Shown here piece after piece: positions 28,545 to 47,791 of a stretch of 64,000 nt of DNA. The notes beneath the pieces are model-generated. The model saw only the letters and a list, made by a program, of their open reading frames with translations. It was not told the DNA's origin and searched no databases. Made by a program: the position numbers and the translations under genes. The DNA comes from Hellea sp. (lineage in GTDB: Bacteria; Pseudomonadota; Alphaproteobacteria; Caulobacterales; Maricaulaceae). Position 1 is the stretch's first letter; every line of letters begins with the position of its first letter. Location: contig JAHDHS010000008.1 of the NCBI GenBank assembly GCA_020631215.1, positions 13,110 through 77,109 of the forward strand, read 5' to 3'.

Positions 28545-28554
28545 TTTTGCCTCC

Positions 28555-34907: not shown

Positions 34908-36234
34908 GACCATAGTCTCCTGATAATTGGGCTGTGGACCCATCAATTTGGCTGCCGAAAAAGGCTTCACCATCTGACGGATTGGCAAGATCGTCGAGCG
35001 GCGTTGCCAGTTTGGATTTATCTGACACCGGCTGCGCAAGATGCGGCGTGACAATGATCACAAGTTCAGTTTCCGCTGTTTGATATCGCGTGGACGAGAA
35101 TAGAGACCCCAGAATTGGTATGTCCCCAAGCCAAGGCACCTGATTGCGGCGGTTTTCAGACTCGTTCTGCAGCAAACCGGCAATGGCAAAGCTTTGTGAA
35201 TTGCGAAGCTCAATCGTGGTTTTCGCCCGCCGGACGCGCAGACCGGGGACTTCAACCCCGCCTATTCGAACAGCAATTGTTTGATCCAGTTGACTGACTT
35301 CCGGCGCTACTTTTAAATTAATCACGCCATCATCGAGCACGGTGGGCGTAAAGGCGAGGCCCACACCAAATTTTCTATATTCAATCGCGATGTCACCAAG
35401 CGGCGTAGGAACCGGGATCGGATATTCGCCGCCTGCCAGGAAGCTGGCTGTTTCGCCTGACATGGAGACTAGATTTGGTTCGGCTAAGGTTCGAATAATA
35501 CCTTTATCTTCCAAAGCTTGTAGGCGTAAATTTAGCGAGGCTGTCCCGATGCCGCCACCAAGAACACCGTTTATCACGGCCCCGTCAAAGAGACTTCCAC
35601 TGTTTAGTCCAAAATCACCCGGCTCAAAACCTCCGCCTTGATTTTGCGCTGATAAAACATTGATGCCCAGCTGCTTAACGGCATCCCGGCTGGCTTCGAC
35701 GAAGCGTACTTCTAACATAACCTGATGACTGTCGTGAACGGATAGGCCATTTGTGACGCGGTTGGGCGCATAAGCCTGCGCGATTTTCTCCGCCCGTTTT
35801 GCTACCGCCTCGGTCGACACATCTCCGGAGAGATAAAGACCGTCTGCCATGGGCCGAACTTCAACGCGTTCATTTGGAAAGGTCTCGAAGAGGGATTTCT
35901 TCAAGCCCGCTAAATCAAACCCAACCGTCACATCAACGATGTCAACTAATTGACGGTTTCCGTCATATAACATGACATTGGTTTTGCCGCCTGCTTTGCC
36001 CAGAACCTGAAAGGACTGATCTGATAAAACAATGACATCGGCAATTTCCGCATTTCCGACCCGGACTTCTTTGAACGCATTATCTGTCCGCATCACGATC
36101 ATGTCATTCTTAACGACATTGGTAGATGTGCGGGATTTTTGGGTTTCCATATCAACCCAGGATTTCCCATGAACAGGCATCGCCAGACAGGCTGTGGTCA
36201 GTAGGGCGCAGGTGAACAGCTTTAAATGACTCAT
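34894..36234 (-). CDS. cpaC: Tad/Cpa pilus secretin CpaC/RcpA
   Basis: Start moved to the ATG at 36234 (MSHLKLFTCALLTTACLAMPVHG signal peptide). BON-like N domain and C-terminal secretin domain (GGEYPIPV, VPWLGDIPILGSLF). Confidence 0.92.
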   Translation of the reverse strand: MSHLKLFTCALLTTACLAMPVHGKSWVDMETQKSRTSTNVVKNDMIVMRTDNAFKEVRVGNAEIADVIVLSDQSFQVLGKAGGKTNVMLYDGNRQLVDIVDVTVGFDLAGLKKSLFETFPNERVEVRPMADGLYLSGDVSTEAVAKRAEKIAQAYAPNRVTNGLSVHDSHQVMLEVRFVEASRDAVKQLGINVLSAQNQGGGFEPGDFGLNSGSLFDGAVINGVLGGGIGTASLNLRLQALEDKGIIRTLAEPNLVSMSGETASFLAGGEYPIPVPTPLGDIAIEYRKFGVGLAFTPTVLDDGVINLKVAPEVSQLDQTIAVRIGGVEVPGLRVRRAKTTIELRNSQSFAIAGLLQNESENRRNQVPWLGDIPILGSLFSSTRYQTAETELVIIVTPHLAQPVSDKSKLATPLDDLANPSDGEAFFGSQIDGSTAQLSGDYGHALQ

Positions 36235-36238
36235 GATC

Positions 36239-37186
36239 TTATCCCCCGGCCAATTGCGTTGCAGAGGCGGCGCTTGACGCTCTCTCTTCACTCAAAACAG
36301 TGACGCTTGATTTTTCTTCGCCGCGGAAGACCGTAATATCTGTTCTTGGATCAAAAGGTTTCGCCTCAGCCTTTTTGGCCTTAGGGGCGGCTGATGATTT
36401 ACGGCGCTTCGTCCGCTGCCGTCCGGAAAGCTGCGTGCTTAAAACCGGCGTAGATGTGGCGACCTCAGTTTCACCCGTAGAGCGAAGAGACAAAGAAAGC
36501 GTCCCGCCCTCCATAGCGGCGGCCAAAATTTGGGCGTCACGATGATTGACTTCGACAGTCACCGTCCGGGCCACATCCGGATCGCTTGTTTGATCAGATA
36601 AATTTTGATCCACGGCTAAAACTTTAATCGATTGCAGGACGATATCTGTTCGGTAGGTTGTGACCTTGGCGTCCGGATTGGGCTCATATGTATAAAGTAT
36701 ATCGACCAGATCGCCGGGCACGACAAATCCCGCCACGCCCGAAACATCATCGACCCGAATGGCTGCCGCGCGGTGACCTTTGGATATTTTGGACGACAGG
36801 CTGGCGCGCTCCCCCTGACCGCTGACCTTATGCGCCAATATAACCTCATTGGCTTTGACCGGCCCAAGCGCGTGAATGGGATCGGAATTATTTGGGTTAA
36901 ATAAATCCGATATATCTGTGAACGTTCCCAATGGAACAATTTCCGCAGGCATATCGACGACACGTAAAACATCCTGGTTTATTGTGTCGCCGAATTCAAG
37001 ATCCACATCCGCTACGAGCACAGCTTGCATGGGTATAGTTTCTTGGATTTCTGCTGGCGCAGTCAAAGGGCGCGCATTTCGAAACTCATTTTCGACGGCG
37101 CCATTAATCCACCCGCGCGCCAGCACAATAGACATGACGCCGAAGGCAGCTGATGCACCTAATGTCACTATTGTATTTACCCGCAT
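36239..37186 (-). CDS. cpaB: Flp pilus assembly protein CpaB/RcpC
   Basis: Start at the ATG 37186 (MRVNTIVTLGASAAFGVMSIVLA TM anchor). SAF-like and RcpC domains. First gene of the operon. Confidence 0.88.
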   Translation of the reverse strand: MRVNTIVTLGASAAFGVMSIVLARGWINGAVENEFRNARPLTAPAEIQETIPMQAVLVADVDLEFGDTINQDVLRVVDMPAEIVPLGTFTDISDLFNPNNSDPIHALGPVKANEVILAHKVSGQGERASLSSKISKGHRAAAIRVDDVSGVAGFVVPGDLVDILYTYEPNPDAKVTTYRTDIVLQSIKVLAVDQNLSDQTSDPDVARTVTVEVNHRDAQILAAAMEGGTLSLSLRSTGETEVATSTPVLSTQLSGRQRTKRRKSSAAPKAKKAEAKPFDPRTDITVFRGEEKSSVTVLSEERASSAASATQLAGG

Positions 37187-37288
37187 TGAGCCCAACCCTT
37201 ATCGATCGTCTTTTTATCCCAACAGCATTTTCCGCCATTTGGAATTAAACTAAGGGAAAGCGTGAAATTTTCTGTCAAGAAACAGAGT

Positions 37289-37303
37289 TTAACATTGGCT
37301 TAA
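37289..37303. promoter_or_regulatory. CtrA-type box TTAA-N7-TTAA (a)
   Basis: TTAACATTGGCTTAA in the cpaB / DUF11-gene divergent spacer. Confidence 0.5.
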
Positions 37304-37311
37304 AGTCGTTG

Positions 37312-37326
37312 TTAACGGGGGCTTAA
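37312..37326. promoter_or_regulatory. CtrA-type box TTAA-N7-TTAA (b)
   Basis: TTAACGGGGGCTTAA, 8 bp after box (a). Confidence 0.5.
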
Positions 37327-37441
37327 ATTTTATGAGCGGAGGGTGAATGCACGATATTCCTAACGCTATTTACATGTTGGATTAGCACCTCGTTAAAGAA
37401 GGCGGGTTATGATGCCGCTGGATATGACTATGGAGATACCC

Positions 37442-37918
37442 ATGAGAAAATTTGGACTTATTACTCTAACCGCTCTTTTGGCAGGGTTTGCCCCAATGGC
37501 ATTTGCCATGACGGCGACACAAACCGTTGAGAAAGAAATCACGAGAACAGCCCCTGACGGGAGCGTTACGACAGAGCGCGTCGAGGCCAAGCTGGTCACA
37601 CCTGGCGAGAAAGTTGTTTATACGCTCAACATACAAAATACGCGGAATGAGGCCGCATCTGACTTGAAACTGGCGATGCCTATCCCTGCAGATGTTAAAT
37701 ATATCGAAGGAACGGCTGACCGCCCCGGGGCGATAGTGCGTTTTTCAGCAGATGGCGGACAAACCTTTACAGACCGCGAAAGCCTGCAAGTAACAGAAAC
37801 GTCGGGGCAAGCCCGTCCTGCGACAGCAGATGATATTACGCATATACAATGGCAAATCGCAGGCCCTATTGCGGCAGGCAGCGGGGACTCGGTCGAGTTT
37901 AAGGCGCGCCTCAGATAA
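37442..37918 (+). CDS. Small secreted DUF11-like (conserved repeat domain) protein
   Basis: Start at the ATG 37442, with GGAGA upstream. Signal peptide MRKFGLITLTALLAGFAPMAFA, then one beta-sandwich-type module with the DUF11 pattern GEKVVYTLNIQNTRNEAASDLKLAMPIPADVKYIEGT. Confidence 0.7.
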   Translation: MRKFGLITLTALLAGFAPMAFAMTATQTVEKEITRTAPDGSVTTERVEAKLVTPGEKVVYTLNIQNTRNEAASDLKLAMPIPADVKYIEGTADRPGAIVRFSADGGQTFTDRESLQVTETSGQARPATADDITHIQWQIAGPIAAGSGDSVEFKARLR

Positions 37919-37942
37919 GCCGATAAAAATTTAACCTATTCT

Positions 37943-37974
37943 AAGCCCGGCGATTTTTGTCGGGCTTTTTCTTT
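37943..37974 (+). terminator. Intrinsic terminator after the small DUF11 gene
   Basis: AAGCCCG-11 nt-CGGGCTT followed by TTTTTCTTT. Confidence 0.65.
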
Positions 37975-38108
37975 GGCCAAGAGCACGAAATAATTGAAGC
38001 TGAAATTATCTATTTGAAGAATCAATAATTTCGAAGTGTTTAACAAGGTATGAACGGAAATAACGCCAACCTCTTGTAATCATATGAAAAATAACAACTT
38101 ATTCTGCT

Positions 38109-38127
38109 AAATGAACTGAAAATGAAC
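38109..38127 (+). promoter_or_regulatory. Direct repeat AAATGAAC-N3-AAATGAAC upstream of the acidic DUF11 gene
   Basis: Two identical 8-mers with 11-bp periodicity, about 125 bp upstream of the ATG at 38252. A third ATGAAC lies at 38050..38055. Confidence 0.35.
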
Positions 38128-38251
38128 GAATAAAAACTGCAAAGAAAGATTTTCTTAACTACGCTTCTTCGCCTCGATTTAACCATCGCCCTGTATGTAC
38201 GCCCTTCAACTTCGGGAACAAGTTGTAAAATAAAACTTAGGGAAAGTGGTT

Positions 38252-39388
38252 ATGACTAACACATCTAAACTTATGAAGGGCTTGCTTGCTGCAACAGCAT
38301 TGACAGCTTTTTCGGCGGTTTCTGCTCATGCGCAGATCACGCCAAATAACTATACGGCTGCGGGTACGACCGTATCCAACACATTTACGCTGGACTACAG
38401 TGTGGATGGCGTGCCGCAGGATCAGATCGATTCAAGCGATCCAACCGATCCTAATGGACCAACAGAATTCACAGTTGACCGTTTGGTCAATCTGACTGTG
38501 GCCTCTGATGGTGACAATACAGTTGCGCCTGGCGCGACAGACGAAGAATTGATCTTCTCAGTCTTGAACACCGGTAACGACACACAAGGCTATGCTCTGT
38601 CTGTTGTAGAGGAAACAACTGCGCCAGATACCTTTGATACAAATGATCCAGCCAGCGCGACAGCTGTCATCCAATACTATGTTGATGATGGTGATGGCGT
38701 TTATGAGCCGGGTGCTGATGACGGCGCAATCCAAACATATGATCCGGCTAACCCGCCACAAGTGGCGCCTGATGAAATGATCTGGGTTGTTGTCACTCAG
38801 GACATCGGTGCTGCTACGGATGGCGACCAAGCTGACGTAACACTGGTTGCTGATACTTTGGATGCCGGTACAACAAATCCGACGACCGCTGATGGCGACG
38901 GAAACAGCCTGGGCGGCGGCGCAGAAAACGTTCTGGCCGATGGTTCCGGTACAGCGAATGAAGCTGCCAATAATGGTGACCATTCAGCCACAGGTAGCTA
39001 TGTTGTTGCCTCTGCGGATATCGAAGCGCTGAAAACTGTTTCTGTTTTCTCTGAAGACGGATCAAACTGCGCCACAATTCCTGGCACACCTTCCGGTGGA
39101 TATGGCGTTCCAGGTGCCTGTGTTGAATATGTGATTTCTGTGACCAACTCAGGATCAGAAGCTGCGACAGCTGTTGACGCGGTTGACGTACTTCCGGGTG
39201 AGCTGGAATTCGTTGACGCCGTATTTGGCGGTGACTTCACAGGCGGTACATTGTCTGAACCTGCTGCAGGGACAGATTGCGTGTCAAGCGCTTGTACAGT
39301 CCAATACAGCGGCGGCACTCTGCCAGCCCCTGTCGCGCCTGCAACTGAGACAGTCGGTACGGTCACAATCCGTGCGATTGTAAAGTAA
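38252..39388 (+). CDS. Highly acidic secreted protein with a C-terminal DUF11-like domain (candidate major fibre or surface subunit)
   Basis: ATG at 38252 with GGGAAAG upstream. Signal peptide ending SAHA. Asp/Thr/Gly/Ala-rich and almost devoid of Lys. DDGDGVYEPGADDG and ADGDGNSLGGG acidic loops. C-terminal CVEYVISVTNSGSEAATAVDAVDVLPGELEFVD DUF11 pattern. Confidence 0.7.
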   Translation: MTNTSKLMKGLLAATALTAFSAVSAHAQITPNNYTAAGTTVSNTFTLDYSVDGVPQDQIDSSDPTDPNGPTEFTVDRLVNLTVASDGDNTVAPGATDEELIFSVLNTGNDTQGYALSVVEETTAPDTFDTNDPASATAVIQYYVDDGDGVYEPGADDGAIQTYDPANPPQVAPDEMIWVVVTQDIGAATDGDQADVTLVADTLDAGTTNPTTADGDGNSLGGGAENVLADGSGTANEAANNGDHSATGSYVVASADIEALKTVSVFSEDGSNCATIPGTPSGGYGVPGACVEYVISVTNSGSEAATAVDAVDVLPGELEFVDAVFGGDFTGGTLSEPAAGTDCVSSACTVQYSGGTLPAPVAPATETVGTVTIRAIVK

Positions 39389-39406
39389 GCAGGTTTAACC
39401 ATTGAC

Positions 39407-39434
39407 GATCTGCCGCGCTGCGGTGCGGCAGATC
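39407..39434 (+). terminator. Perfect 10-bp stem hairpin between the acidic subunit gene and the giant OMP gene (candidate attenuator)
   Basis: GATCTGCCGC-8 nt-GCGGCAGATC, starting 19 nt after the stop, followed by TCTTCA (weak U tract). Confidence 0.5.
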
Positions 39435-39488
39435 TCTTCACGAAGTCCAAAAATAATAGAAACTTCGGAAGTTAGGGTCTGGTATAAG

Positions 39489-42400
39489 ATGGTCACTCCA
39501 CGTGCTCATAATCTCGGTTTGTTGGCGCTTGCCGCTACGGCATGGGTTGCATCTGCACCCCTGGCGAATGCGCAAGTCAATAATTACGGGACAGAAGTCG
39601 TCAACGTCGCGCATGTCACCTATACTTTAGGGACAATCGAAGAGACTGTTGCGACGCCGGAGGCAGTCTTTGTCATCCGCCCAGCAGCTACGCCTGCAAT
39701 TATCGAATTTTTCCGTTACGCTCCAACGGCACCGTCTCCAATCATGCGGTCAATTAACGGGTCTGATTACAGCCCGTCCGGAGACTTAAACGGCACATAC
39801 ACACCTATTGGTTCGCCCGTCACAGCAGGGGGGCAGGTAATTGACCTGTCCGGACCAATTCCGCTTATTCCGGCAGAGACTTATCTGGCTGGCGAGTTGA
39901 TGTTCGTCCGGGTCATCGATGAGGGTCAGAACCTCAACAGCGATGAAATTGATACGGTCAACATTACAATTGAAGCGGATAATGGCGACATCATTACGAT
40001 GCGCCTGTATGAAAGCGGCCCTGATACGGGCGAGTTTTTTGCCTATCTGCCATCAACTGATGATGACACGGCGCAAAATGACCCGGTCATGACAGCCAGT
40101 GGCAATGCCAGCTTGACAGCGACATATGTTGATATTTTTGACTCAACGGATGTTACGGTCGATACAGCCATCCTGAACCCGCTGAACCGCGTCTTTAGCT
40201 CTGTGACCGGTGACCTGGTTGACGGCGCAGTTGTCACACTGATTAATTTGGACACGGGTGAAGAGGCCACGGTTCTGGGTGTAGACGGTTTTTCTGCCTT
40301 TCCGTCCAATGTTACTTCAGGCGAAGATGCTGTCGACAGTGCAGGTCTGGTATATGACAATCGGGATGGTGAGTTCCGGTTCCCAGTGGTGGAGCCTGGA
40401 AATTACTCAATCCGCGTAGAAGCGCCGGAAGGGTATACATTTGCATCGGCTATTGCTCCGGATCAAATGATGCAAGGCGCCGGCGGAGGCGGGAATTTTG
40501 TTCTGCTGCCAATTTCCTATGGTGATGCATTGGTTCTAACAGAGCAGGGAACATTGCGTTTTGATATTCCTCTCGACCCCGTCTCAGACATTATTGTTCA
40601 GAAGACAGCCAATCAAACTTTTGGTGATATTGGCGACTATATTGGCTACCAAGTCACGATTGAAAATCGCGGACAGGCAACTGTGCCTGCCATGTTACAT
40701 GACACATTGCCGCTGGGCTTTAGATATGTACCGGGCACATCCCGTATCGAACAAACAGTAATATCAGATCCGAATCAAAGTGATGATGGTTCGCTTCTAA
40801 CATTTGATATGGGCCTCTTGGGCGCAGGCGAGTCTATTACGCTGGACTATGCGCTTTTAATCGGTCCCGGTGCGGCTATGGGCGATGCGGTTAATGCGGC
40901 GGTTGTCCGTGATGGTGATGGTGATCAGGTTTCTAATATCGCGCGGGCCGGCATTAAATTGCGCGAGGATTTACTGCGCAGCACGTCCACAATTGTTGGC
41001 CGGATTTCAGAGCAGTCCTGTGATGGTGACGCCGATTGGGCCCGCCCGATTGAGCGCGGCATCGGTGTTGAGGGCGTGCGCCTTTATATGGAAACAGGTG
41101 CCTATGTCGTGTCAGACGAAGAGGGCCTTTTCCACTTTGAAGGTGTAAGCGAAGGTACGCACGTTGTTCAGGTCGATAAAGAAACTCTGCCGCAAGGTTT
41201 TGAATTGATGACCTGCGAGGAGAATACGCGTTATGCCGGGTCGAATGAAAGCAAATTCATTGACGTCCAAGGCGGTGGTATTTGGCGCGCGAATTTCTAT
41301 CTGAAACAGACTGGCGAACGCGAAGAAGAGGCGACGCAGGAAGTCTTTAATGATGCCAAAGAATATTTGGACTATGCTAAAGACTGGCTGGAAACCCAAA
41401 CAGCAAAAATTGAGTGGGCCTATCCTGAAACCAGCCGCACGCCTTCTACAAGTTCGACCAATATTGGTATCAAGCATGGCCCGGATCATAAGATCAAACT
41501 AAAGGTCAATGATCGGGATGTTCCAAGCTATCTCTATGCTGGGCGCGATGCCAATACTGACCGCTCTGTGATGATCAGCCGCTGGCGCGGCGTCAGCCTG
41601 GAAGATGGCCGTAATGTTGTGATCGCAACCGTAAAAGACGGCCAGGGCAATGTGGTTGAGACTATCCGCGAAGAAATCTGGTATGTGAAAACCATCGCCA
41701 AAGCCATTGCGATGCCGGATCAATCTACATTGATTGCCGATGGCCGCACGCCGCCTGTTGTTGCGATCCGTATGGAGGATCAGTCTGGCCGTCCAGTACA
41801 TGCCGGCCGGATCACAACCATCAATCTAGAGCCGCCATATCGTTTATATGATGAAACTGGCAAAGACCGCTTGATTGAAGAAACAGAAGAGCTGCTATCG
41901 CCGCTCTCAGCGCGTCAAGATCTCTCAATTGGTGCAGATGGTATTTTGCGCGTTAAGCTGGAGCCGACCTTACGGACAGGCAAGGTCACAGTGATCGCGA
42001 CACTGGATAATGGTCGTCAGGTTCCGATCTATATGTATCTGGAGCCCGAAAAGCGTGACTGGATTCTTGTTGGTCTAGCTGAGGGCACTGCTGCGCTTGA
42101 CAAAGTTAAAGGTAATAGCATCGCAATTGAAGAATCCGGCGGTGCGGAAGACATTATCACTGATGGCCGTGTGGCATTCTTTGCCAAAGGCATGGTCAAG
42201 GGTAATTGGTTGATGACATTGGGCGTCGATACGGATCGCCGCCGCGGAGGCCGTGATGGCGCCTTCCGCGATGAAATCGACCCGAACGCCTATTACACAT
42301 TATATGGTGATCGCTCTTATCAGGAATTTGAGGGCAGCTCCCGTTATCCGGTTTATGTCAAACTGGAGAAGCGTCAGGCCTATGCGATGTTTGGTGACTA

Positions 42401-44594
42401 TGACACCAACATCACCGAAGGCCGTTTGACAAGCTATAACCGGAAGCTCTCCGGCTTAAAGGCTGAATATTTGGGTGATAAATTCCAGGTATTGGGTTTT
42501 GCGGCTGAAACTAATCAGGGCTTTGCCAAGGATGAATTGGCGGCAGATGGTACCTCAGGGACATATCAGCTGAATAATGATCGGATCCTGCCGCAATCAG
42601 AGGAAATTGTTGTCGAGACACGCGATCGTTTCCGTCCGGATGTTGTGCTGGAGCGCAAGGTGATGGTTCGCTATCTGGACTACACGCTGGACTATCTGAC
42701 AGGCCAATTGATTTTCCGCCTGCCGGTTGATGCCACAGATGCAGACTTCAACCCGAATGTGATTGTTGTGGATTATGAAACCTCTGAAGGCGTAGAGCGC
42801 AACATTACAGCTGGTGGCCGGGTACAGGCACAACTTGCTAAGGGTAAAGTTCAAATTGGATCGAGCTTTGTCCATGAAAATGGCAGCGCGACCTCCGCAG
42901 GGGCCGAGCATAATCAGATCGGCATTGATGTTATTGCTGATGTAACGGATAATACGCAAATCCGCGCTGAATATGCTGTGACAGAAAATAAAACGGCGGC
43001 TGGCAAAAATACAGCCGATGCGAAATTGTTGGAGATTGTACATAACTCCGAAAAACTCACAGGTGAGGCTTATTACCGTGAGGAAGGTGAAGGCTTCGGT
43101 CTGGGACAGTCCGGGAGCAATACGGCGGCAGCCCGTCGTTATGGCGTGCGCGGTAATTACAAAATTGATGAATTCGAGGATGAAAAAACAGGCCGCCGTG
43201 GACAGCGCCGGATCGAGGCACAGGCTTTCCGCGAGGAAAATTTGACGACGGGTAATACCCGCAACACAGGCGAAGTCATGTTGACACATGAAGGTGCGCG
43301 GCTGACAGCCTCTGCCGGTCTACGGGCAAGCCGTGATGATATTGTCTCAGGCGAGGACCGCCAATCTACGACGGCAATCCTGAGAGGCGCCTACCGCCTA
43401 CCAAAACATGATGCGACGGTTCAGATCAGCCATGAGCAGCCAATTGGCGGCGATGATGATGTCTCCGCCTACCCAATGCGCACAACCGTTGGTATTGACA
43501 AAACAATTGGCAATCTCGGCACAGTTTCTATCCGTCATGAATTACAGGACGGGGAGAATGCCCGCTCGAATAACACGGTTGTCGGCGTTACAGCGGCGCC
43601 ATGGAAAGGTGCAAATCTGACGGCCAGTGGCGATATGGTCACGAATGACAGTGGACGCCGTTTGGGCGCAACTGTTGGTTTGGATCAAACTGTGCGCATT
43701 GACGAAAAATGGTCAGTAACGGGCGGTCTACGGAACCGGAAAGTCTTGAATTCTGATCAGGAATTCGTTGAGGTCTTGCCGGATGCTGCCATCTCCGCTT
43801 TTGAGAAGAATGAAGGTTTCACATCTGCTTATGCCGGTGTGGGTTACAGAAATGACGTTATGTCTGGGTCTGTTCGCGGGGAAGTTCGCGACAGCGCGGA
43901 AAGCACAGGCTATATCGGCTCTGCGTCCGTGGCGCGTGAGCTCTCTGAGACCCTGTCTTTTGCCGGTGCGGCCCGCGGGTTAATTAATGATCCTAAAGGC
44001 GGCGGCAATGCAAATAGCCAGCTGGATGTCCGTCTGGGCGGCGCCTGGCGTCCACGCGATGAAGACACAATCCTTTTTGATCGTCTGGATTTGAACCACA
44101 CACATGATGCTTTGGGTCAACGCACAACTAAAATTGTCAATAACGCAGCCTTTAATACTATGGTATCTGACCGTTGGCAGCTGACGGGTAATTGGGGCGT
44201 GAAAAATGTCCGGACAGAAATTGCCGGTCAGAAATTCAGCAACACAACGCATCTTCTGGGGGCTGAGACACGGTTTGACGTCACCGAGAAAATTGATATC
44301 GGTTTGCGCGGGTCTTACTTGACCAATAATGGCACCGACAGCGCGGCTTATAGCTGGGGACCGTCAATCGGTGTCAGCCCGGTCAAGAATGTCTGGGTCA
44401 GTGCGGGCTATAATGTCGAAGGCTATAAAGATGATGATTTCGAAGCGGCCGAATATTCCCGCAAGGGTCTATATCTGCAAATGCGCCTGAAGTTCGATCA
44501 GCATACGGCGCGTGGTTTGCTGCGCCGGATAAGCCCGTCAGCGAATGTCGCCGGCCCGGGTGTGGAAGCCCCGCGCAGCTTTAGCCAGCCATAA
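39489..44594 (+). CDS. Giant multidomain outer-membrane protein (Cna-B/SdrD-like, DUF11, Big_1-like modules plus an ~800-aa beta-rich C-terminal region)
   Basis: Start moved to the ATG at 39489 (MVTPRAHNLGLLALAATAWVASAPLANA signal peptide). Approximate module positions: SdrD-B/CarboxypepD_reg-like 40190..40450 (GEFRFPVVEPGNYSIRVEAPEGYTF), DUF11 40590..40870, second SdrD-B-like 40990..41210 (EEGLFHFEGVSEGTHVVQVDKETLPQGFE), Big_1-like 41710..42045. From about 42050 the sequence is G/Y/R/D/N/T-rich with alternating hydrophobic residues. It ends in a terminal-strand-like GLYLQMRLKF at 44495, then a roughly 30-residue tail. Confidence 0.75.
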   Translation: MVTPRAHNLGLLALAATAWVASAPLANAQVNNYGTEVVNVAHVTYTLGTIEETVATPEAVFVIRPAATPAIIEFFRYAPTAPSPIMRSINGSDYSPSGDLNGTYTPIGSPVTAGGQVIDLSGPIPLIPAETYLAGELMFVRVIDEGQNLNSDEIDTVNITIEADNGDIITMRLYESGPDTGEFFAYLPSTDDDTAQNDPVMTASGNASLTATYVDIFDSTDVTVDTAILNPLNRVFSSVTGDLVDGAVVTLINLDTGEEATVLGVDGFSAFPSNVTSGEDAVDSAGLVYDNRDGEFRFPVVEPGNYSIRVEAPEGYTFASAIAPDQMMQGAGGGGNFVLLPISYGDALVLTEQGTLRFDIPLDPVSDIIVQKTANQTFGDIGDYIGYQVTIENRGQATVPAMLHDTLPLGFRYVPGTSRIEQTVISDPNQSDDGSLLTFDMGLLGAGESITLDYALLIGPGAAMGDAVNAAVVRDGDGDQVSNIARAGIKLREDLLRSTSTIVGRISEQSCDGDADWARPIERGIGVEGVRLYMETGAYVVSDEEGLFHFEGVSEGTHVVQVDKETLPQGFELMTCEENTRYAGSNESKFIDVQGGGIWRANFYLKQTGEREEEATQEVFNDAKEYLDYAKDWLETQTAKIEWAYPETSRTPSTSSTNIGIKHGPDHKIKLKVNDRDVPSYLYAGRDANTDRSVMISRWRGVSLEDGRNVVIATVKDGQGNVVETIREEIWYVKTIAKAIAMPDQSTLIADGRTPPVVAIRMEDQSGRPVHAGRITTINLEPPYRLYDETGKDRLIEETEELLSPLSARQDLSIGADGILRVKLEPTLRTGKVTVIATLDNGRQVPIYMYLEPEKRDWILVGLAEGTAALDKVKGNSIAIEESGGAEDIITDGRVAFFAKGMVKGNWLMTLGVDTDRRRGGRDGAFRDEIDPNAYYTLYGDRSYQEFEGSSRYPVYVKLEKRQAYAMFGDYDTNITEGRLTSYNRKLSGLKAEYLGDKFQVLGFAAETNQGFAKDELAADGTSGTYQLNNDRILPQSEEIVVETRDRFRPDVVLERKVMVRYLDYTLDYLTGQLIFRLPVDATDADFNPNVIVVDYETSEGVERNITAGGRVQAQLAKGKVQIGSSFVHENGSATSAGAEHNQIGIDVIADVTDNTQIRAEYAVTENKTAAGKNTADAKLLEIVHNSEKLTGEAYYREEGEGFGLGQSGSNTAAARRYGVRGNYKIDEFEDEKTGRRGQRRIEAQAFREENLTTGNTRNTGEVMLTHEGARLTASAGLRASRDDIVSGEDRQSTTAILRGAYRLPKHDATVQISHEQPIGGDDDVSAYPMRTTVGIDKTIGNLGTVSIRHELQDGENARSNNTVVGVTAAPWKGANLTASGDMVTNDSGRRLGATVGLDQTVRIDEKWSVTGGLRNRKVLNSDQEFVEVLPDAAISAFEKNEGFTSAYAGVGYRNDVMSGSVRGEVRDSAESTGYIGSASVARELSETLSFAGAARGLINDPKGGGNANSQLDVRLGGAWRPRDEDTILFDRLDLNHTHDALGQRTTKIVNNAAFNTMVSDRWQLTGNWGVKNVRTEIAGQKFSNTTHLLGAETRFDVTEKIDIGLRGSYLTNNGTDSAAYSWGPSIGVSPVKNVWVSAGYNVEGYKDDDFEAAEYSRKGLYLQMRLKFDQHTARGLLRRISPSANVAGPGVEAPRSFSQP

Positions 44595-44601: not shown

Positions 44602-47475
44602 CTAAGACGTTTTTGAACGAAGCGCGTAGTAACGGTCAGCATATTCCTGCTCCCGTAAGAAGACTATGGCGTCGATTAGCTCGCGTTTTATGATGGGCTT
44701 CGTTAAAAACAGATTGGCACCGGCGGCCATGCACTCCGCATTTGTCATGGAGTCTGCATCTGCTGTAATTGCAATAATGGGTACGTCTTTATAAGGGGTC
44801 TCACTGTGTCTTACGATGCGGGTGGTTTCTACACCGTCGATGCCTGGCATGCGTATATCCATCAGAATAATGTCAACAGGGTGCCCCTTAAGCACCTCCA
44901 ATGCATCTTCACCGCTATCGGCGGTAAGGCACAGGCACCCTTGAGGTGCGAGCAGTAATTTCAAAACGTCCTGATTGGCTTTGACGTCCTCAACAATTAG
45001 AACGTTCACACCCGTTAAATCATCCGGGTTTTCAAACTGTATCGGGATTTTTGATTGCTTATCAGTGGCGGTCTGCTGATGACGCGGGCTGCTATGCATT
45101 TCAGGGGCGAGTATCATCAAGTCCAAAATATCTTCATCGGGATCTTCATCCGGATCATGCGTCACATCGACCAGCGCCTTGGATTCTTCGTCCGGGTTAA
45201 AGTTCGCGGGCAGGACATCCTGACCCCATTCTTCCTTGGATGCGGGAATAGCTTTGGGCGCTTGTTTTATTGTCTCGACTTCCTGAATAGACGCGTTTTC
45301 GTGGGGAACAGACGGTTTGGCATCTTCCAGAATTGTGGTAGCGGGCTCTTTGACTTGGGCATGCTCTGTAAGGACAGCCGTTAATATAAACTCAGACCCG
45401 CGACCGGCCTTAGAGACAAGCGTGACATCCCCGCCCATCATTCTGGCCATAGAGCGTGTAATGGCCAAGGTCAGACCCGATCCATTGAACTTACGGGTCA
45501 TCGAACTGTCGGCTTGCAGGAACGGCTTGAATAGCTTGGTCTGTACGTCTTCTTCAATCCCCATCCCTGTATCGGCAATAATCGCTTGCAGGCCAATTTG
45601 GCCATCCTCTCTGGTTTCCCGGGTGATGTGCACGTGAACCCGGCCTTTATCCGTGAATTTCACAGCATTATCGATAAGGCCGTCCAGACATTGTGTCAGG
45701 CGGGTCTCGTCAAATTCGGCTGTCAGGTTCAAATCATCACTGATGAAATAAGTATAGGTCAGGCCTTTGGCGGCGGCCTTGGCTTCCCAGTTTTGAGCTG
45801 TGGCTTCCAGGGGCTTGGCCAAATTTTGGGGTTCCGGGAACAGCTTTAACCGGCCGCTATCAAGTCTGGACATATCAATGATGCTCTCGACCAGATTGAA
45901 CAAAATATTTCCGGATTGCAGGATGATCCCGCTTTTCTCTCTAACGTCTTCGTCCTCATGGCGTGTGGCCATAAAGTCTGCGATACCGATAATCCCGTTT
46001 AGTGGCGTGCGGAGCTCATGACTGATCATGCCTAAAAACTCCGTCTTCATCCGGTCAGCGCTTTCAGCTTCCCGCGTTTTGATGGCCAGAAGTTTGGATG
46101 TTTTATCACGGTAACGGGCAAATAGCAGAGAGGCCACCAAAGCGGCGCCAATCAATGCGAGCAAAGACATGAGAAGCCGGTTTTTCTTTTCCTCTTCAGC
46201 CAGCTTCTGCGCTTTTAGCTCCGCTTCACGTATCAGAGCGCTTTCTCTCTCAGCCTGCCGCTCACGTGAGTTTTCCAGGGTTGCGAGTAAGTCAGCGGTG
46301 TCTTGATTGTTTGCATCAAGTATATTTTTTATTGCTAGATCTTGTCGCGCATTGAAATGCTTTACGCTTTCAGCTGTTCTGTTTTCTGCTTGAGCTATGA
46401 GGGCCTTAGCATAAAGATAATGACGTTCGTCATATTCTGATAGGTCAGAAATATTCTCGATTACTTTGCGAGCTTCAGAGGTGTTACCTAGCCCCGCTTC
46501 CGCAATCGCAAGAAGTATTTGAGTTCTTTTTGTTATAGCGTCAATTTCTGAGCTTTTTATAGCTTTCTGCGCATATTCCTTTACCGATTCAAAGTCGCCA
46601 GTGTCCGCATAAACCTGTGCTAAGCGCATATCAGTTAAGCCGGGAGTAGTTGAATCGTGATTTTGTTCTAATCTCTTAAGGGTTTCAGCGATTTCTAAGC
46701 TGATTTTATGATCTCGAGATGTCCCAAACGCATAAAGAAGGTTATTTAATAATTCTATGCCATCGATTGGTTGCTCAGCTTCCAATTTAAGCTCTATCAG
46801 ACGCTCAGTGTTGATAAGCGCTAAATCAGTATTGTGAAGCATGTTATGCATCAATACAATTGCATCTGTAATCAGTATTTGCGCTTCATGTGTGTAAGCA
46901 TCCACTTGATTTGGAATCAAAGTAAGGGCCTTTTGTGCAGACTCCAAACCTTCTATACGCTTCACAGACATAGCTGCTAAAGTGCATTTTATTGCGTGTG
47001 CCTGCACGACGACAAACCAATCGGAGTGCGAAAAATAACCATCAATATTATTTAGGATAAGCTCATAATCTTTTGAGGCTGTATCGGGTGTAAACTTACC
47101 TAAGAATTTTTCGAAAAGCCCTAATACGTCCTTGTCTCTTTGGGTGCCGAACTTATGAACTAAATTTCGGTGTGATTCTAATTCAGCGTCCACTAAAGTG
47201 GAGTCACCAGTAAATATTACGTCGTATAGTGCAGTGCGACTTGCTTCAATTTGCTTCGAAGGTGGCAGTTCCGATTTAGGGTTTGTGTCTGAGGCAGTTT
47301 TAGAAACTACTAAATTCTGCGTCTCAATCATTTCCGCTAAAGATATGGCACGTTCTTGAATTTTGTCATAATCCAGTGTTTCCGCATGTGCCGTTGCGGA
47401 CATAAACGTTGCTAGTGTCAACGTTAGATGCCTAATATTACGGCAAGGTGCCAAATATTTTTTATGCCATGACAT
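44602..47475 (-). CDS. Hybrid sensor histidine kinase (TPR-like periplasmic sensor, TM, HisKA, HATPase_c, receiver)
   Basis: 957 aa. Signal/anchor then ~400 aa helical repeat region, coiled coil, TM (LLMSLLALIGAALVASLLFA), H-box ISHELRTPLN, G-box GSGLTLAI, acidic linker, REC domain (LIVEDVKANQ...ILMDIRMPGIDG). Confidence 0.9.
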   Translation of the reverse strand: MSWHKKYLAPCRNIRHLTLTLATFMSATAHAETLDYDKIQERAISLAEMIETQNLVVSKTASDTNPKSELPPSKQIEASRTALYDVIFTGDSTLVDAELESHRNLVHKFGTQRDKDVLGLFEKFLGKFTPDTASKDYELILNNIDGYFSHSDWFVVVQAHAIKCTLAAMSVKRIEGLESAQKALTLIPNQVDAYTHEAQILITDAIVLMHNMLHNTDLALINTERLIELKLEAEQPIDGIELLNNLLYAFGTSRDHKISLEIAETLKRLEQNHDSTTPGLTDMRLAQVYADTGDFESVKEYAQKAIKSSEIDAITKRTQILLAIAEAGLGNTSEARKVIENISDLSEYDERHYLYAKALIAQAENRTAESVKHFNARQDLAIKNILDANNQDTADLLATLENSRERQAERESALIREAELKAQKLAEEEKKNRLLMSLLALIGAALVASLLFARYRDKTSKLLAIKTREAESADRMKTEFLGMISHELRTPLNGIIGIADFMATRHEDEDVREKSGIILQSGNILFNLVESIIDMSRLDSGRLKLFPEPQNLAKPLEATAQNWEAKAAAKGLTYTYFISDDLNLTAEFDETRLTQCLDGLIDNAVKFTDKGRVHVHITRETREDGQIGLQAIIADTGMGIEEDVQTKLFKPFLQADSSMTRKFNGSGLTLAITRSMARMMGGDVTLVSKAGRGSEFILTAVLTEHAQVKEPATTILEDAKPSVPHENASIQEVETIKQAPKAIPASKEEWGQDVLPANFNPDEESKALVDVTHDPDEDPDEDILDLMILAPEMHSSPRHQQTATDKQSKIPIQFENPDDLTGVNVLIVEDVKANQDVLKLLLAPQGCLCLTADSGEDALEVLKGHPVDIILMDIRMPGIDGVETTRIVRHSETPYKDVPIIAITADADSMTNAECMAAGANLFLTKPIIKRELIDAIVFLREQEYADRYYALRSKTS

Positions 47476-47776: not shown

Positions 47777-47791
47777 TTAACACAATCTTAA
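47777..47791. promoter_or_regulatory. CtrA-type box TTAA-N7-TTAA in the kinase / nhaC spacer
   Basis: TTAACACAATCTTAA. Confidence 0.35.

What the first reader, a model, noticed from the sequence alone, without database searches (positions are those of the whole stretch)
37442..44594. Candidate undescribed surface-fibre / secretion module: two DUF11-like secreted proteins plus a ~1700-aa usher-sized outer-membrane protein
Directly seen: three same-strand genes all encode proteins with Sec signal peptides. (A) is a 158-aa single DUF11-like beta-sandwich with its own terminator. (B) is a 379-aa extremely acidic Asp/Thr/Gly-rich protein with a C-terminal DUF11-like domain. It has its own long AT-rich promoter region, and a perfect 10-bp hairpin follows it. 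(C) is a giant protein with an N-terminal array of Ig-like modules (two SdrD-B/Cna-B-like, one DUF11, one Big_1-like), then about 800 aa of beta-rich sequence. That region ends in an OMP-like terminal strand ...LYLQMRLKF. No periplasmic chaperone, sortase, T1SS/T5SS partner or T9SS-type C-terminal signal is present. Inference: a small subunit, an abundant subunit behind an attenuator, and a large OM pore protein together resemble a pilus or fibre operon. However, the parts are not those of chaperone-usher, curli, type IV or type V pili. The C-terminal beta region is far larger than an autotransporter barrel and is at the opposite end from inverse autotransporters. The divergent pilin-less Tad operon, shared CtrA-type boxes and adjacent hybrid kinase suggest one adhesion island. 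In Pseudomonas aeruginosa the PprAB two-component genes lie inside the tad locus and co-control Flp pili, CupE fimbriae and BapA.
Basis: partly seen in the sequence, partly recalled or inferred. Interest (0 to 1): 0.82.

Follow-up and report, generated by a model that had tools for sequence, protein, structure and literature searches.

The report
Split-domain surface fibre with giant barrel
Three neighbouring genes encode two small secreted subunits and a giant outer-membrane protein with a predicted barrel of about 40 strands. They appear to form a widespread, undescribed kind of bacterial surface fibre whose parts probably snap together, perhaps covalently, without the helper enzymes used by known pili.

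Summary
A (37442-37918), B (38252-39388) and C (39489-44594) are real same-strand genes for Sec-secreted DUF11 proteins. DUF11 (PF01345) is now called CLIPPER. C ends in an ~830-aa domain that no Pfam, NCBIfam or PDB sequence search recognises. AlphaFold models it confidently (pLDDT 84.8) as ~40 long antiparallel strands. Its best structural matches are only generic large barrels (TM ≤0.32).

- **Co-occurrence.** B lies directly upstream of C in 72 of 81 loci, and A is nearby in 63. No other gene is conserved. Similar clusters occur in Desulfobacterota, Gammaproteobacteria, Deinococcus and cyanobacteria.
- **New finding.** A, B and a fourth protein D (absent here) all end exactly at one conserved strand. 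That strand lies just before the Asn strand, which in complete CLIPPER domains forms a Lys-Asn isopeptide. B and C begin, right after their signal peptides, with an orphan copy of that Asn strand (Asn invariant).
- **Best explanation (inferred).** This is a split CLIPPER domain completed in trans. A or D is the tip, B the shaft, and C the anchor and pore.
- **Tad and kinase.** Linkage to the Tad genes and the hybrid kinase is not conserved.
- **Prior work.** I found no description of this module.

The parts
37289..37326 (+). Two perfect TTAA-N7-TTAA (CtrA-type) boxes in the divergent region between the Tad operon (cpaB-like, - strand) and gene A
   Evidence: 4 matches in the window against 0.97 expected, and 2 of them lie here. 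Function not tested.
37442..37918 (+). Gene A: 158-aa Sec-secreted protein with a single CLIPPER (DUF11) domain. It is acceptor-only: it has no N-terminal Asn strand and ends at ...VEFKARLR-COOH. The candidate isopeptide Lys is in QTVEKEI. Proposed tip or cap subunit.
   Evidence: The family is present in 63 of 81 loci. The C-terminal motif is found in 52 of 64 A proteins and the N-terminal motif in 1 of 64.
37943..37967 (+). Terminator-like hairpin after A (11-bp stem plus T-run)
37968..38245 (+). AT-rich (33.8% GC) region upstream of B. It holds a 14-nt element AAACTTAGGGAAAG at 38233-38246 that forms B's ribosome-binding site and recurs at 37247-37260.
38252..39388 (+). Gene B: 378-aa very acidic secreted protein, both donor and acceptor. 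Proposed polymerising shaft subunit.
   Evidence: B is always directly upstream of C, on the same strand (72 of 81 loci).
38363..38398 (+). B's N-terminal orphan CLIPPER Asn strand GTTVSNTFTLDY, starting 10 residues after the signal-peptide cleavage site. The Asn codon is at 38378-38380.
   Evidence: the Asn is 100% conserved in the 54 B proteins that match the motif, and 0 of 903 other ORFs match; the motif aligns with the isopeptide Asn806 strand of crystal structure 9IFR.
39014..39385 (+). B's terminal, truncated CLIPPER domain. It keeps the Lys (ALKTV), the Asp (DVLP) and the final strand TVTIRAIVK-COOH, but has no Asn strand.
   Evidence: the Lys and the Asp are each conserved in at least 95% of 72 B proteins; the C-terminal motif is found in 60 of 72; the DUF11 HMM alignment runs on to position 93-97 of 114 only when a native N-terminal strand is appended.
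39411..39438 (+). Perfect 10-bp inverted repeat between B and C with no T-run. Possible attenuator or mRNA stabiliser that sets the B:C ratio.
   Evidence: z = -4.5.
39489..44594 (+). Gene C: 1701-aa outer-membrane protein that is donor-only. Order of parts: signal peptide, Asn strand, Ig-like stalk, two Big_1-like domains, giant barrel. Proposed anchor and translocon.
39588..39623 (+). C's N-terminal orphan CLIPPER Asn strand GTEVVNVAHVTY, starting 5 residues after the signal-peptide cleavage site. The Asn codon is at 39603-39605.
   Evidence: the motif is found in 71 of 81 C proteins, with the Asn 100% conserved. It is also present in the Acinetobacter C-homologue.
39624..41405 (+). C's stalk. 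It holds an S-layer-like LxExGxDTGxF domain, prealbumin/SdrD_B-like domains (about 40338-40451 and 41073-41183) and one complete CLIPPER domain with Lys, D-x-L-P and Asn (40587-40943).
41406..42038 (+). Two Ig-like (Big_1/Invasin_D3-like) domains immediately before the barrel
   Evidence: pLDDT about 85. One search gives GH2 Ig-domain hits. One search gives Big_1/Invasin_D3 hits in the cyanobacterial and Deinococcus homologues.
42042..44531 (+). Giant beta-barrel domain of about 830 aa. It has about 40 long antiparallel strands plus a small, highly conserved insert (...YLDYTLDY...). The last strand is LYLQMRLKF and a short helix follows.
   Evidence: pLDDT 84.8, pTM 0.76; 2969 cluster representatives with E<=1e-3; no family or PDB sequence hit; only generic barrel matches.

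Best explanation
A, B and C form a self-contained surface-fibre (adhesin) module built on a split CLIPPER (DUF11) domain and a dedicated giant outer-membrane barrel.

**Shown**
- All three proteins are Sec-exported.
- A, B and, in other genomes, D end in a CLIPPER domain that stops exactly after the strand preceding the Asn strand. These domains still keep the isopeptide Lys, and B and D also keep the catalytic Asp.
- B and C start, a few residues after signal-peptide cleavage, with an orphan copy of that Asn strand. The Asn is invariant.

**Inferred**
- The N-terminal strand of one protein inserts into the truncated terminal domain of another. This resembles donor-strand complementation in chaperone-usher pili.
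- The join is probably locked by a spontaneous intermolecular Lys-Asn isopeptide bond, as in SpyTag/SpyCatcher, BsaA or archaeal threads.
- The polarity then follows. Acceptor-only proteins (A, or the adhesin-like D elsewhere) cap the distal end. B, which is both donor and acceptor, polymerises as the shaft. C, which is donor-only, ends the chain.
- C's own Ig-like stalk would carry the fibre. Its barrel of about 40 strands would anchor the fibre in the outer membrane and probably provide the pore through which the folded chain and the stalk pass.
- In most relatives an OmpA domain placed before the barrel ties the base to peptidoglycan. The window's C lacks this domain.
- No chaperone, sortase or energy-coupling partner is needed. 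Folding and bond formation would drive assembly.
- The hairpin between B and C would keep B in excess over C.
For: **Synteny**
- B lies directly upstream of C in 72 of 81 loci. A is present in 63. D, present in 19, overlaps C's stop codon. Nothing else is conserved.
- The same cluster layout occurs in Desulfosudis, Acinetobacter, Deinococcus and Synechococcus.
- In 64 distant metagenome loci, 64 of 279 same-strand neighbours carry the C-terminal motif, against 5 of 268 other ORFs. For the N-terminal motif the figures are 31 of 279 against 2 of 268.

**Motif specificity**
- C-terminal motif: 60 of 72 B, 52 of 64 A, 16 of 19 D, and 1 of 903 other ORFs.
- N-terminal motif: 54 of 72 B, 71 of 81 C, 1 of 64 A, 0 of 19 D, and 0 of 903 other ORFs. 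The Asn is 100% conserved.

**Split-domain logic**
- CLIPPER is a CnaA-like fold with a Lys(beta1)-Asn isopeptide catalysed by Asp (crystal 9IFR; Costa et al., 10.1101/2025.04.25.650565).
- The Asn of the C-family profile aligns with Asn806 of 9IFR.
- The Lys and the D-x-L-P Asp are each conserved in at least 95% of B's terminal domains, yet no Asn strand follows. The same pattern is seen in distant examples.
- Appending a native N-terminal strand extends the Pfam DUF11 alignment to position 93-97 of 114. A scrambled strand does not.
- With an HMM built from C's internal domain, the native strand adds about 2 bits for B, against 0 for shuffled strands.

**Barrel**

**Surface location**
- D proteins carry GEVED, P-domain and lectin domains. 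Some C homologues carry cadherin domains.

**Precedents for exchange-and-lock**
- BsaA (PMC11580942) and archaeal threads (PMC9715654).
Against: - Nothing here is experimental, and no multimer structure prediction could be run.
- The self-complementation score gains are small: about 2 bits for B and under 1 bit for A with the family HMM. B's Pfam score did not rise.
- The N-terminal strand could instead pack in cis, either on the first domain or back onto B's own terminal domain to give a closed monomer.
- The window's A has MPIP where the catalytic D-x-L-P should be. An isopeptide bond at the A junction is therefore doubtful.
- Whether C's stalk is outside the cell is inferred only. The OmpA domain lies between stalk and barrel in most relatives, which is also compatible with a periplasmic stalk.
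- Model coordinates could not be inspected. The first 8 of the roughly 40 strands might form a plug rather than part of the barrel wall, leaving a minimum of 32.
Confidence: 0.5

Rival explanations
1. C is a translocon for cargo that carries a C-terminal signal domain, in the manner of T9SS, with no polymer. C is a self-sufficient, outer-membrane-anchored fibrillar adhesin whose giant barrel also exports A, B and D. The barrel recognises these by their conserved terminal CLIPPER domain and C-terminal motif. The cargo is released or loosely attached, and the N-terminal motif is simply a fold element.
For: - A, B and D share a strict C-terminal domain and motif, whereas the upstream parts of D vary freely. 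T9SS cargo with its CTD shows the same pattern.
- The barrel is about the size of SprA or larger.
- Costa et al. describe proteins with CLIPPER domains and an OmpA anchor as fibrillar adhesins.
Against: - This reading does not explain why an orphan Asn strand with an invariant Asn sits at the mature N-terminus of exactly B and C.
- It does not explain why the acceptor domains keep the isopeptide Lys and Asp but have no Asn in cis.
- No PorU-like peptidase or motor proteins are conserved in the neighbourhood.
Confidence: 0.2
2. C is a giant channel and A and B are its accessory subunits, acting as plug, lid or ligand binder. The arrangement would resemble LptD/LptE, MtrB/MtrA or SusC/SusD, and the channel would import or export some other substrate.
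For: - Large barrels usually need a plug or partner.
- The best fold matches include LptD, MtrB and TonB-dependent transporters.
- B and C are tightly linked as genes.
- RefSeq labels some relatives 'TonB-dependent receptor'.
Against: - No TonB-dependent-receptor, Plug or LptD model hits any family member, even at E<=1.
- Clusters hold variable numbers of paralogous subunits, together with adhesin-like D proteins carrying lectin, GEVED or cadherin domains. That fits a modular fibre rather than a fixed channel complex.
- A and B are not lipoproteins.
Confidence: 0.12
3. The module is a structural element of the envelope. C tethers the outer membrane to peptidoglycan, and A and B form a periplasmic or sub-membrane protein layer. 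The DUF11-containing chlamydial OmcB plays such a role in the chlamydial outer-membrane complex (from my own knowledge, not checked here).
For: - Most family members carry an OmpA peptidoglycan-binding domain.
- Acinetobacter has an OmpA gene directly after its C homologue.
- DUF11 was first noted in chlamydial envelope proteins (my own knowledge).
Against: - The window's C has no OmpA domain.
- The extreme acidity of B, and the lectin and cadherin domains in D and C relatives, suggest an extracellular location.
- A pore of about 40 strands is unnecessary for a tether.
Confidence: 0.08

Closest known systems
Chaperone-usher pili (Fim/Pap; usher PF00577 plus PapD-like chaperone)
   Same: - Sec-exported Ig-fold subunits whose last domain lacks a strand that the next subunit's N-terminal extension supplies.
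- A tip subunit that lacks the extension, as in FimH.
- A conserved subunit C-terminus.
- A single large outer-membrane barrel encoded in the same operon.
- No ATP-driven partner.
   Different: - There is no chaperone gene.
- The barrel has about 40 strands rather than 24 and shows no sequence or close fold relation (TM 0.18-0.26).
- The subunit fold is CLIPPER/CnaA-like, not the pilin fold.
- The missing strand carries an isopeptide Asn, so the link may be covalent.
- The barrel protein itself carries a donor strand and a long stalk.
'Donor-strand exchange and lock' fibres: C. perfringens BsaA (TasA family; PMC11580942) and Sulfolobus threads (PMC9715654)
   Same: An N-terminal strand of one subunit inserts into the next and is fixed by a spontaneous intermolecular isopeptide bond. 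In BsaA this uses an Asn-Lys pair with an acidic catalyst. No sortase is involved.
   Different: - The folds differ (TasA-like, or the thread subunit fold).
- Those organisms are monoderm or archaeal and have no outer membrane, so they have no barrel component.
- The bond in the present system is predicted, not shown.
Sortase-assembled Gram-positive pili and SpyTag/SpyCatcher
   Same: CnaA/CnaB-type Ig domains with Lys-Asn/Asp isopeptide chemistry. Covalent shaft, tip and base architecture. The split-domain complementation is what SpyTag/SpyCatcher exploits artificially.
   Different: There is no LPXTG motif and no sortase. The hosts are diderm. The anchor is an outer-membrane barrel rather than peptidoglycan cross-bridges.
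CLIPPER (DUF11, PF01345) fibrillar adhesins (Costa et al. 2025, Protein Sci; crystal 9IFR)
   Same: A, B and C contain this domain. C's internal copy has the full Lys / D-x-L-P / Asn set. Proteins of C's size with CLIPPER stalks and an OmpA-like anchor are described there as Gram-negative fibrillar adhesins.
   Different: That work treats only intramolecular bonds. It does not mention a barrel, partner subunits, truncated terminal domains or orphan N-terminal Asn strands ('barrel' occurs 0 times).
T9SS translocon SprA/Sov with CTD-bearing cargo
   Same: A very large single-chain barrel (36 strands). Cargo of diverse function sharing a conserved C-terminal Ig-like domain.
   Different: - There is no sequence relation and TM is 0.15.
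- No GldLM/PorLM motor, PorV or PorU is present.
- T9SS is restricted to the Fibrobacteres-Chlorobi-Bacteroidetes group, whereas the present family is found in other phyla.
- The cargo domain here is a truncated CLIPPER domain.
Predicted 38- and 40-strand OMBB superfamily of Solan et al. 2021 (PNAS, PMC8346858)
   Same: That work uses sequence and contact-map prediction to propose single barrels larger than any solved one. My model also has about 40 strands.
   Different: I could not verify that the two families are the same, because the supplement is not held. That paper assigns no function and no partner genes.

Membership tests
Chaperone-usher pilus | Usher protein: PF00577 barrel (24 strands) with plug and N- and C-terminal domains | tested here: not met
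   No Pfam or NCBIfam hit at E<=1. Foldseek against FimD/PapC gives TM 0.18-0.26. About 40 strands are predicted.
Chaperone-usher pilus | PapD-like periplasmic chaperone encoded in the cluster | tested here: not met
   No conserved gene other than A, B, C and D in 81 close loci or 64 distant loci.
Chaperone-usher pilus | Subunits with an incomplete Ig fold completed by the neighbour's N-terminal extension | tested here: inconclusive
   The sequence logic fits: truncated terminal CLIPPER domains plus an orphan N-terminal strand. The fold differs from the pilin fold, and no multimer model could be run.
Type V secretion (classical, inverse and two-partner) | 12-strand autotransporter or intimin barrel, or a 16-strand Omp85-type TpsB with POTRA domains | tested here: not met
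   There are no Autotransporter, IAT_beta, ShlB or POTRA hits. The barrel domain spans 830 aa with about 40 strands.
Type IX secretion | SprA/Sov translocon, T9SS C-terminal sorting domain on the cargo, and PorU/PorV/GldLM partners | tested here: not met
   TM is 0.15 against 6h3j/8gl6. No T9SS CTD family hit A, B or D. No partner genes are conserved.
Sortase-dependent pili | LPXTG-type sorting signal and a sortase gene | tested here: not met
   A, B and D end at ...[RK][AG]x[ILV][KR]-COOH with no LPXTG or hydrophobic tail. No sortase is conserved in the neighbourhood.
CLIPPER / DUF11 (PF01345, TIGR01451) | Score at or above the curated cut-off of the family model | tested here: met
   TIGR01451 (cut-off 24): A 34.7, B 26.2, C 31.0. 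Pfam (cut-off 24.6): B 25.2, C 30.7, A 22.4, so A is just below.
CLIPPER / DUF11 (PF01345, TIGR01451) | Intramolecular Lys-Asn isopeptide with an Asp catalyst inside one domain | tested here: inconclusive
   C's internal domain has K, D-x-L-P and N in register with 9IFR. The terminal domains of A and B lack the Asn strand in cis. Bond formation cannot be tested here.
TonB-dependent receptor | Plug (PF07715), 22-strand barrel (PF00593) and a TonB box | tested here: not met
   There are no hits even at E<=1 for six diverse family members, including those RefSeq labels 'TonB-dependent receptor'. Fold matches are generic, with TM 0.15-0.24.
Tad/Flp pilus locus (as one island with the trio) | Conserved co-occurrence of the trio with Tad genes | tested here: not met
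   Tad genes are adjacent in only 24-26 of 81 loci, all of them close relatives (Hellea, Litorimonas, Algimonas). None of the 41-46%-identity loci has them. The Tad genes themselves are real.
Exchange-and-lock fibres (BsaA, archaeal threads) | An intermolecular isopeptide between an N-terminal donor strand and the neighbouring subunit | not testable with these tools
   The residues are in place: the donor Asn is invariant and the acceptor Lys and Asp are conserved. Testing needs mass spectrometry, SDS-PAGE ladders or AF3 multimer models.
Large-OMBB superfamily of Solan et al. 2021 | A single barrel of 38-40 strands | tested here: inconclusive
   The DSSP string of the AF2 model shows 40 long strands, with pLDDT 84.8. 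Barrel closure could not be inspected and the family identity could not be checked.

The most novel reading that the evidence does not exclude
This would be a phylum-spanning, previously unrecognised class of diderm surface fibre and secretion system. CLIPPER-domain subunits would be 'clipped' together covalently by trans-completion of a split isopeptide domain, with no chaperone and no sortase. They would be exported through, and covalently anchored to, a single-chain barrel of about 40 strands, which would be the largest known. In effect it would be a natural SpyTag/SpyCatcher pilus with its own new outer-membrane translocon.
Probability: 0.4. Interest if true: 0.92.

Novelty: categorically new. 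Interest (0 to 1): 0.85.

Why it matters
- **A new assembly route.** If the model is right, it adds a new outer-membrane assembly or secretion machine to the short list of known ones (chaperone-usher, curli, T4P, type V pili, T5SS, T9SS).
- **Breadth.** The barrel family has about 3000 clusters at 50% identity. They occur in Alpha- and Gammaproteobacteria, Desulfobacterota, Deinococcus and cyanobacteria.
- **Function for annotated unknowns.** It would give a function to thousands of proteins now labelled 'DUF11 domain-containing' or 'OmpA family'.
- **An open question.** It would explain how Gram-negative bacteria can build covalently linked, isopeptide-stabilised fibres without sortases.
- **Barrel biology.** It would provide the largest single-chain beta-barrel for structural work and for studies of barrel insertion.
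- **Tools.** It would offer natural orthogonal tag/catcher pairs for protein engineering.
- **Testability.** The prediction needs only three point mutants, an SDS-PAGE ladder and one cross-link mass-spectrometry experiment.

Tried and rejected
**Known families tested and not met**
- Sequence and profile searches of the barrel domain against PDB found nothing.
- Pfam and NCBIfam found nothing at permissive thresholds.
- Foldseek against PDB found only generic large barrels.
- I therefore rejected usher, LptD, TonB-dependent-receptor, autotransporter and SprA membership.

**Modelling**
- The first AF2 run, with a shallow MSA of 58-88% identity, gave pLDDT 61.7 and left residues 883-1119 unresolved.
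A 48-sequence alignment worked.

**Tad and kinase island**
- I rejected this as a general feature.

**Self-complementation tests**
- The Pfam test and the family-HMM test gave only small gains. They are supportive, not decisive.

**Searches that gave nothing useful**
- phmmer of B against PDB gave only a chance hit.
- My regex for the Lys...D-x-L-P pattern in distant subunits was too strict (8 of 54). I judged those cases by eye instead.
- I tried to fetch the source protein of crystal 9IFR (B9T28_05395) to see whether it is a C-family member. The search found nothing. The Acinetobacter plasmid homologue is only 26% identical in that domain.

**Literature**
- Searches on DUF11 or CLIPPER combined with pilus, usher, barrel, donor strand or intermolecular isopeptide found no description of this module.
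- One search was poorly designed and wasted.
- The Brucella and 'tafi' hits were for DUF1134 and DUF1102, not DUF11.

**Other**
- The 14-nt repeat is not conserved in other loci.

Full report

Yes. Three same-strand ORFs occupy 37409-44594.

- **A.** A starts at the ATG at 37442, preceded by GGAG. It is 158 aa with a classical Sec signal peptide. It matches the DUF11 repeat model TIGR01451 (34.7 bits, cut-off 24) and falls just under the Pfam cut-off (22.4 against 24.6). A terminator-like hairpin with an 11-bp stem and a T-run follows at 37943-37967.
- **B.** B starts at the ATG at 38252 and is 378 aa. The mature protein has 55 acidic and 4 basic residues. A DUF11 hit lies near its C-terminus. 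The 278 bp upstream are 33.8% GC, against 52% for the window.
- **B-C spacer.** The spacer holds a perfect 10-bp inverted repeat at 39411-39438 without a T-run. The spacer folds far better than shuffled controls (z = -4.5).
- **C.** An identical public protein starts at M30 of the ORF, giving 39489 and 1701 aa (P0001). C has prealbumin/SdrD_B-like hits, one complete DUF11 domain at 396-514 (ORF numbering), and then about 1100 residues with no family hit.

**2. What is C's C-terminal region?**

- Neither phmmer nor a profile of 82 relatives finds any PDB sequence for it.
- Pfam and NCBIfam find nothing, even at E<=1, in six diverse members.
- A first AlphaFold model of residues 640-1730 used a shallow alignment and was mediocre, with pLDDT 61.7. 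It showed two confident Ig-like domains at about 669-879, followed by about 31 long strands.
- An exhaustive HMMER scan of 1.84 billion cluster representatives with residues 881-1730 found 2969 proteins at E<=1e-3 and 1148 at E<=1e-30. In almost all, the whole ~830-aa domain matches, and it lies at or near the C-terminus of proteins of 1600-3000 aa.
- With 47 of these at 32-68% identity as the alignment, the model of 881-1730 reached pLDDT 84.8 and pTM 0.76. It has 40 long antiparallel strands, a small strongly conserved insert (...YLDYTLDY...) and a last strand LYLQMRLKF.
- Foldseek against PDB returns only the biggest known barrels: SlpA (30 strands), MtrB and LptD (26), FimD/PapC (24), TonB-dependent transporters (22) and SprA (36). 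All have TM <=0.32. These strand counts are from my own knowledge, except SlpA and SprA, which one search confirms.
- I could not open the coordinates. The barrel wall has at least 32 strands (strands 9-40, an even number seen in both models) and at most 40.
- Solan et al. (PNAS 2021, PMC8346858) predicted from sequence a 'superfamily of large OMBBs' with 38 and 40 strands and assigned it no function. This may be the same family, but I could not verify it.

**3. Do the genes belong together?**

- A scan of one genome per species returned 80 loci from the Maricaulales/Hyphomonadaceae and Parvularculaceae groups: Hellea, Litorimonas, Algimonas, Marinicaulis, Hirschia, Henriciella and Hyphomonas. 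Identity ranged from 41% to 77%.
- Clustering all ORFs of these loci plus the window shows only three conserved neighbours.
  - B is always immediately upstream of C on the same strand (72 of 81 loci; most of the rest lack the upstream DNA).
  - A is present in 63 of 81, upstream on either strand or downstream.
  - In 19 of the more distant loci, a fourth gene D of 670-1650 aa starts at or over C's stop codon.
- D proteins have variable N-terminal parts (GEVED, proprotein-convertase P domain, complete DUF11 repeats) and a conserved C-terminal domain.
- Tad genes are adjacent in only 24-26 loci, all close relatives. A full-length relative of the kinase is present only sometimes.
- Beyond this clade, the same cluster type appears in:
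  - an Acinetobacter haemolyticus plasmid, with small DUF11 genes, a 2008-aa C homologue, an OmpA gene and a 978-aa DUF11 protein;
  - Deinococcus radiodurans MP1;
  - a Synechococcus plasmid, which has a clear A homologue with the THVRWT motif;
  - Desulfosudis oleivorans and another complete genome, with the layout [~346 aa][~165 aa A-like][~370 aa B-like][C][D-like].
- A shorter barrel subfamily follows giant DUF11 proteins in Rhizobiales.
- In 64 distant metagenome loci (32-37% identity), no gene family other than DUF11 proteins is conserved next to the barrel gene.
- Most distant members are about 1950-2000 aa and carry an OmpA peptidoglycan-binding domain. In P0145 it lies before the barrel, at 794-891 against 1170-1976. 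In P0213 it lies after the barrel. The window's C lacks it.

**4. The decisive sequence features**

- **N-terminal strand.** Mature B and mature C begin with the same motif, G-x-x-[VI]-x-N-x-[AF]-x-[VL]-x-[YF]. In B it is AGTTVSNTFTLDY and in C it is YGTEVVNVAHVTY.
  - The motif is found in 54 of 72 B and 71 of 81 C, with the Asn 100% conserved.
  - It is found in 1 of 64 A, 0 of 19 D and 0 of 903 other ORFs of the same loci.
  - It also heads the Deinococcus 691-aa protein, the cyanobacterial 910-aa protein and the Acinetobacter C homologue.
- **C-terminal strand.** A, B and D all terminate at one strand, Φ-x-Φ-[RK]-[AG]-x-Φ-[KR]-COOH. B ends ...TVTIRAIVK, A ends ...VEFKARLR and D ends ...FSVSFRARIK.
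  - The motif is found in 60 of 72 B, 52 of 64 A and 16 of 19 D, against 1 of 903 other ORFs.
- **Distant loci.** Among same-strand neighbours within 4.5 kb of the barrel gene, 64 of 279 carry the C-terminal motif and 31 of 279 the N-terminal motif. Elsewhere the figures are 5 of 268 and 2 of 268.

**5. What the motifs mean**

- The gene tables show that PF01345 is now named CLIPPER.
- Costa et al. (bioRxiv 10.1101/2025.04.25.650565; Protein Sci 2025, PMC12617251) showed that it is a CnaA-like Ig fold. It has an intramolecular isopeptide between a Lys in the first strand and an Asn in the penultimate strand, catalysed by an Asp. In crystal 9IFR these residues are K715, N806 and D748.
- In the profile alignment, the family's 'G-x-a-V-N-x-A-v' segment aligns with the ...VVN806KVTA strand of 9IFR.
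- The N-terminal motif of B and C is therefore a CLIPPER Asn strand that has no domain in front of it.
- Conversely, the terminal CLIPPER domains of B keep the Lys (A-x-K-x-V, at least 95%) and the Asp of D-x-L-P (at least 95%). D keeps both at 80% or more, and A keeps the Lys. All stop immediately before the position where the Asn strand should come. Examples from distant loci show the same pattern.
- B's first domain has an invariant VDR where the Lys would be. There is therefore no obvious partner in cis next to the orphan strand.
- Two 'self-complementation' tests agree in direction but are weak.
  - Appending the native strand of B or C to the C-terminus of A or B makes the Pfam DUF11 alignment run on to profile position 93-97 of 114. 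A scrambled strand does not. A's score rises from 23.4 to 27.3 or 28.1, against 25.5 with the scrambled strand.
  - With an HMM of C's complete internal domain, native strands add about 2 bits for B across 54-68 loci, against 0 for 270 shuffled controls.

**6. Mechanism proposed**

The steps below are inferred, not shown.

- The pattern acceptor-only (A, D), donor plus acceptor (B) and donor-only (C) has the same logic as a chaperone-usher pilus. There, the tip adhesin has no N-terminal extension, the rod subunits have both parts, and a base ends the chain.
- I propose that the N-terminal hairpin of B or C completes the truncated CLIPPER domain of the more distal subunit.
- This is the natural equivalent of SpyTag/SpyCatcher, and of the 'exchange and lock' shown for BsaA (N35-K74 with E56; PMC11580942) and inferred for archaeal threads (PMC9715654).
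- The resulting chain would be A (or D) - Bn - C. C's stalk of about 800 residues would lead into its barrel.
- Three observations argue that the stalk and subunits are extracellular: the adhesin-type domains of D, the L-type lectin+CLIPPER protein encoded in the L168 cluster, and the cadherin domains in some C homologues.
- The OmpA domain in most relatives lies between stalk and barrel. The chain would then have to pass through the barrel lumen, and a barrel of about 40 strands should be wide enough for folded Ig domains.
- The strong hairpin between B and C, and A's separate terminator, fit an excess of B over C.
- No energy source or chaperone is conserved. Folding and bond formation would have to drive export.
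- Main uncertainties:
  - whether the strand inserts in trans rather than in cis;
  - whether a bond forms at the A junction, since the window's A has MPIP in place of D-x-L-P;
  - where assembly takes place;
  - the exact strand count.

**7. Rivals**

- (a) C is a translocon for cargo with a C-terminal signal domain, without polymerisation (0.2).
- (b) C is a giant channel with A and B as plug or lid (0.12).
- (c) The module is an envelope tether or layer (0.08).

None of these explains the orphan Asn strand together with acceptor domains that keep Lys and Asp but lack Asn.

**8. Comparison with known systems and novelty**

- Membership was tested and not met for chaperone-usher pili, type V secretion, T9SS, sortase pili and TonB-dependent receptors. 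The membership table gives the details.
- The domain family (CLIPPER) is known. Large CLIPPER proteins with an OmpA anchor have been called fibrillar adhesins. Very large barrels have been predicted.
- In ten full-text searches I found no paper describing the barrel family's partners, the truncated terminal domains, the orphan Asn strands or any function.
- The library holds only open-access papers and preprints, so a prior description elsewhere cannot be excluded.
- On the present evidence this is a new kind of outer-membrane fibre or secretion module rather than a variant of a known one.

**9. Verdict**

The fibre/secretion idea and the absence of known parts hold. The Tad/kinase island does not generalise.
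- Interest is high (0.85). The module is widespread and unannotated, it has a specific and cheaply testable mechanism, and it includes what may be the largest single-chain beta-barrel.

Noticed in passing
L058, L059, L069 (Hirschia), L078 (Henriciella), L073/L075/L079 (Hyphomonas), L054, L066 and others; for example L059:13179-16118: A fourth gene, D, encodes 670-1650 aa. It has variable GEVED, P-domain or DUF11 N-terminal parts and a conserved C-terminal truncated CLIPPER domain ending in ...FSVSFRARIK. It starts at or over C's stop codon in 19 loci. It is absent from the window's lineage.
   Followed up: yes
L082:5182-10775 (Pseudochrobactrum plasmid); L084:1-9757 (S. meliloti plasmid): Rhizobiales have a two-gene subfamily: a large or giant DUF11 protein ending in ...ETRVEAG[QK], followed by a ~1250-aa outer-membrane protein. 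That protein shares only the first ~330 residues of C's barrel domain. RefSeq calls it 'TonB-dependent receptor', yet no TonB-dependent-receptor model hits it.
   Followed up: partly
window 37247-37260 and 38233-38246: The 14-nt element AAACT[AT]AGGGAAAG occurs exactly twice in the window (expected 0.06). One copy lies in the Tad/A intergenic region and the other forms B's ribosome-binding site. It is not present in any of the 168 related loci. Unexplained.
   Followed up: partly
window 37289-37303, 37312-37326, 1885-1899, 47777-47791: There are four perfect TTAA-N7-TTAA (CtrA-type) boxes against about 1 expected. Two lie in the divergent Tad/A promoter region and one lies upstream of the hybrid kinase gene's start codon (47475).
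   Followed up: partly
C residues ~150-260 (window ~39850-40180) and homologues: The N-terminal stalk domain with the motif D-x-D-x-N-x-D...L-x-E-x-G-x-D-T-G-x-F matches repeats of an archaeal 'cell surface protein' (PDB 8c8k, E = 2.7e-12 with the family profile).
   Followed up: no
P0145, P0213, P0275-P0388; L081:11578-12660: Most distant members of the C family carry an OmpA peptidoglycan-binding domain, usually before the barrel and sometimes after it. Acinetobacter has instead a separate OmpA gene directly downstream. The window's C has none.
   Followed up: partly
window 25000-37200 (- strand): The Tad operon holds CpaB/RcpC, a secretin, two TadE-like genes, a TadZ-like gene, CpaF and TadB. 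A regex search of all six frames found no Flp-pilin-like ORF in the window.
   Followed up: partly
window 46001-48000 and 62001-64000: Two stretches are about 41% GC, against about 52% elsewhere. The first covers the 5' (sensor) part of the hybrid kinase gene and its upstream region.
   Followed up: no
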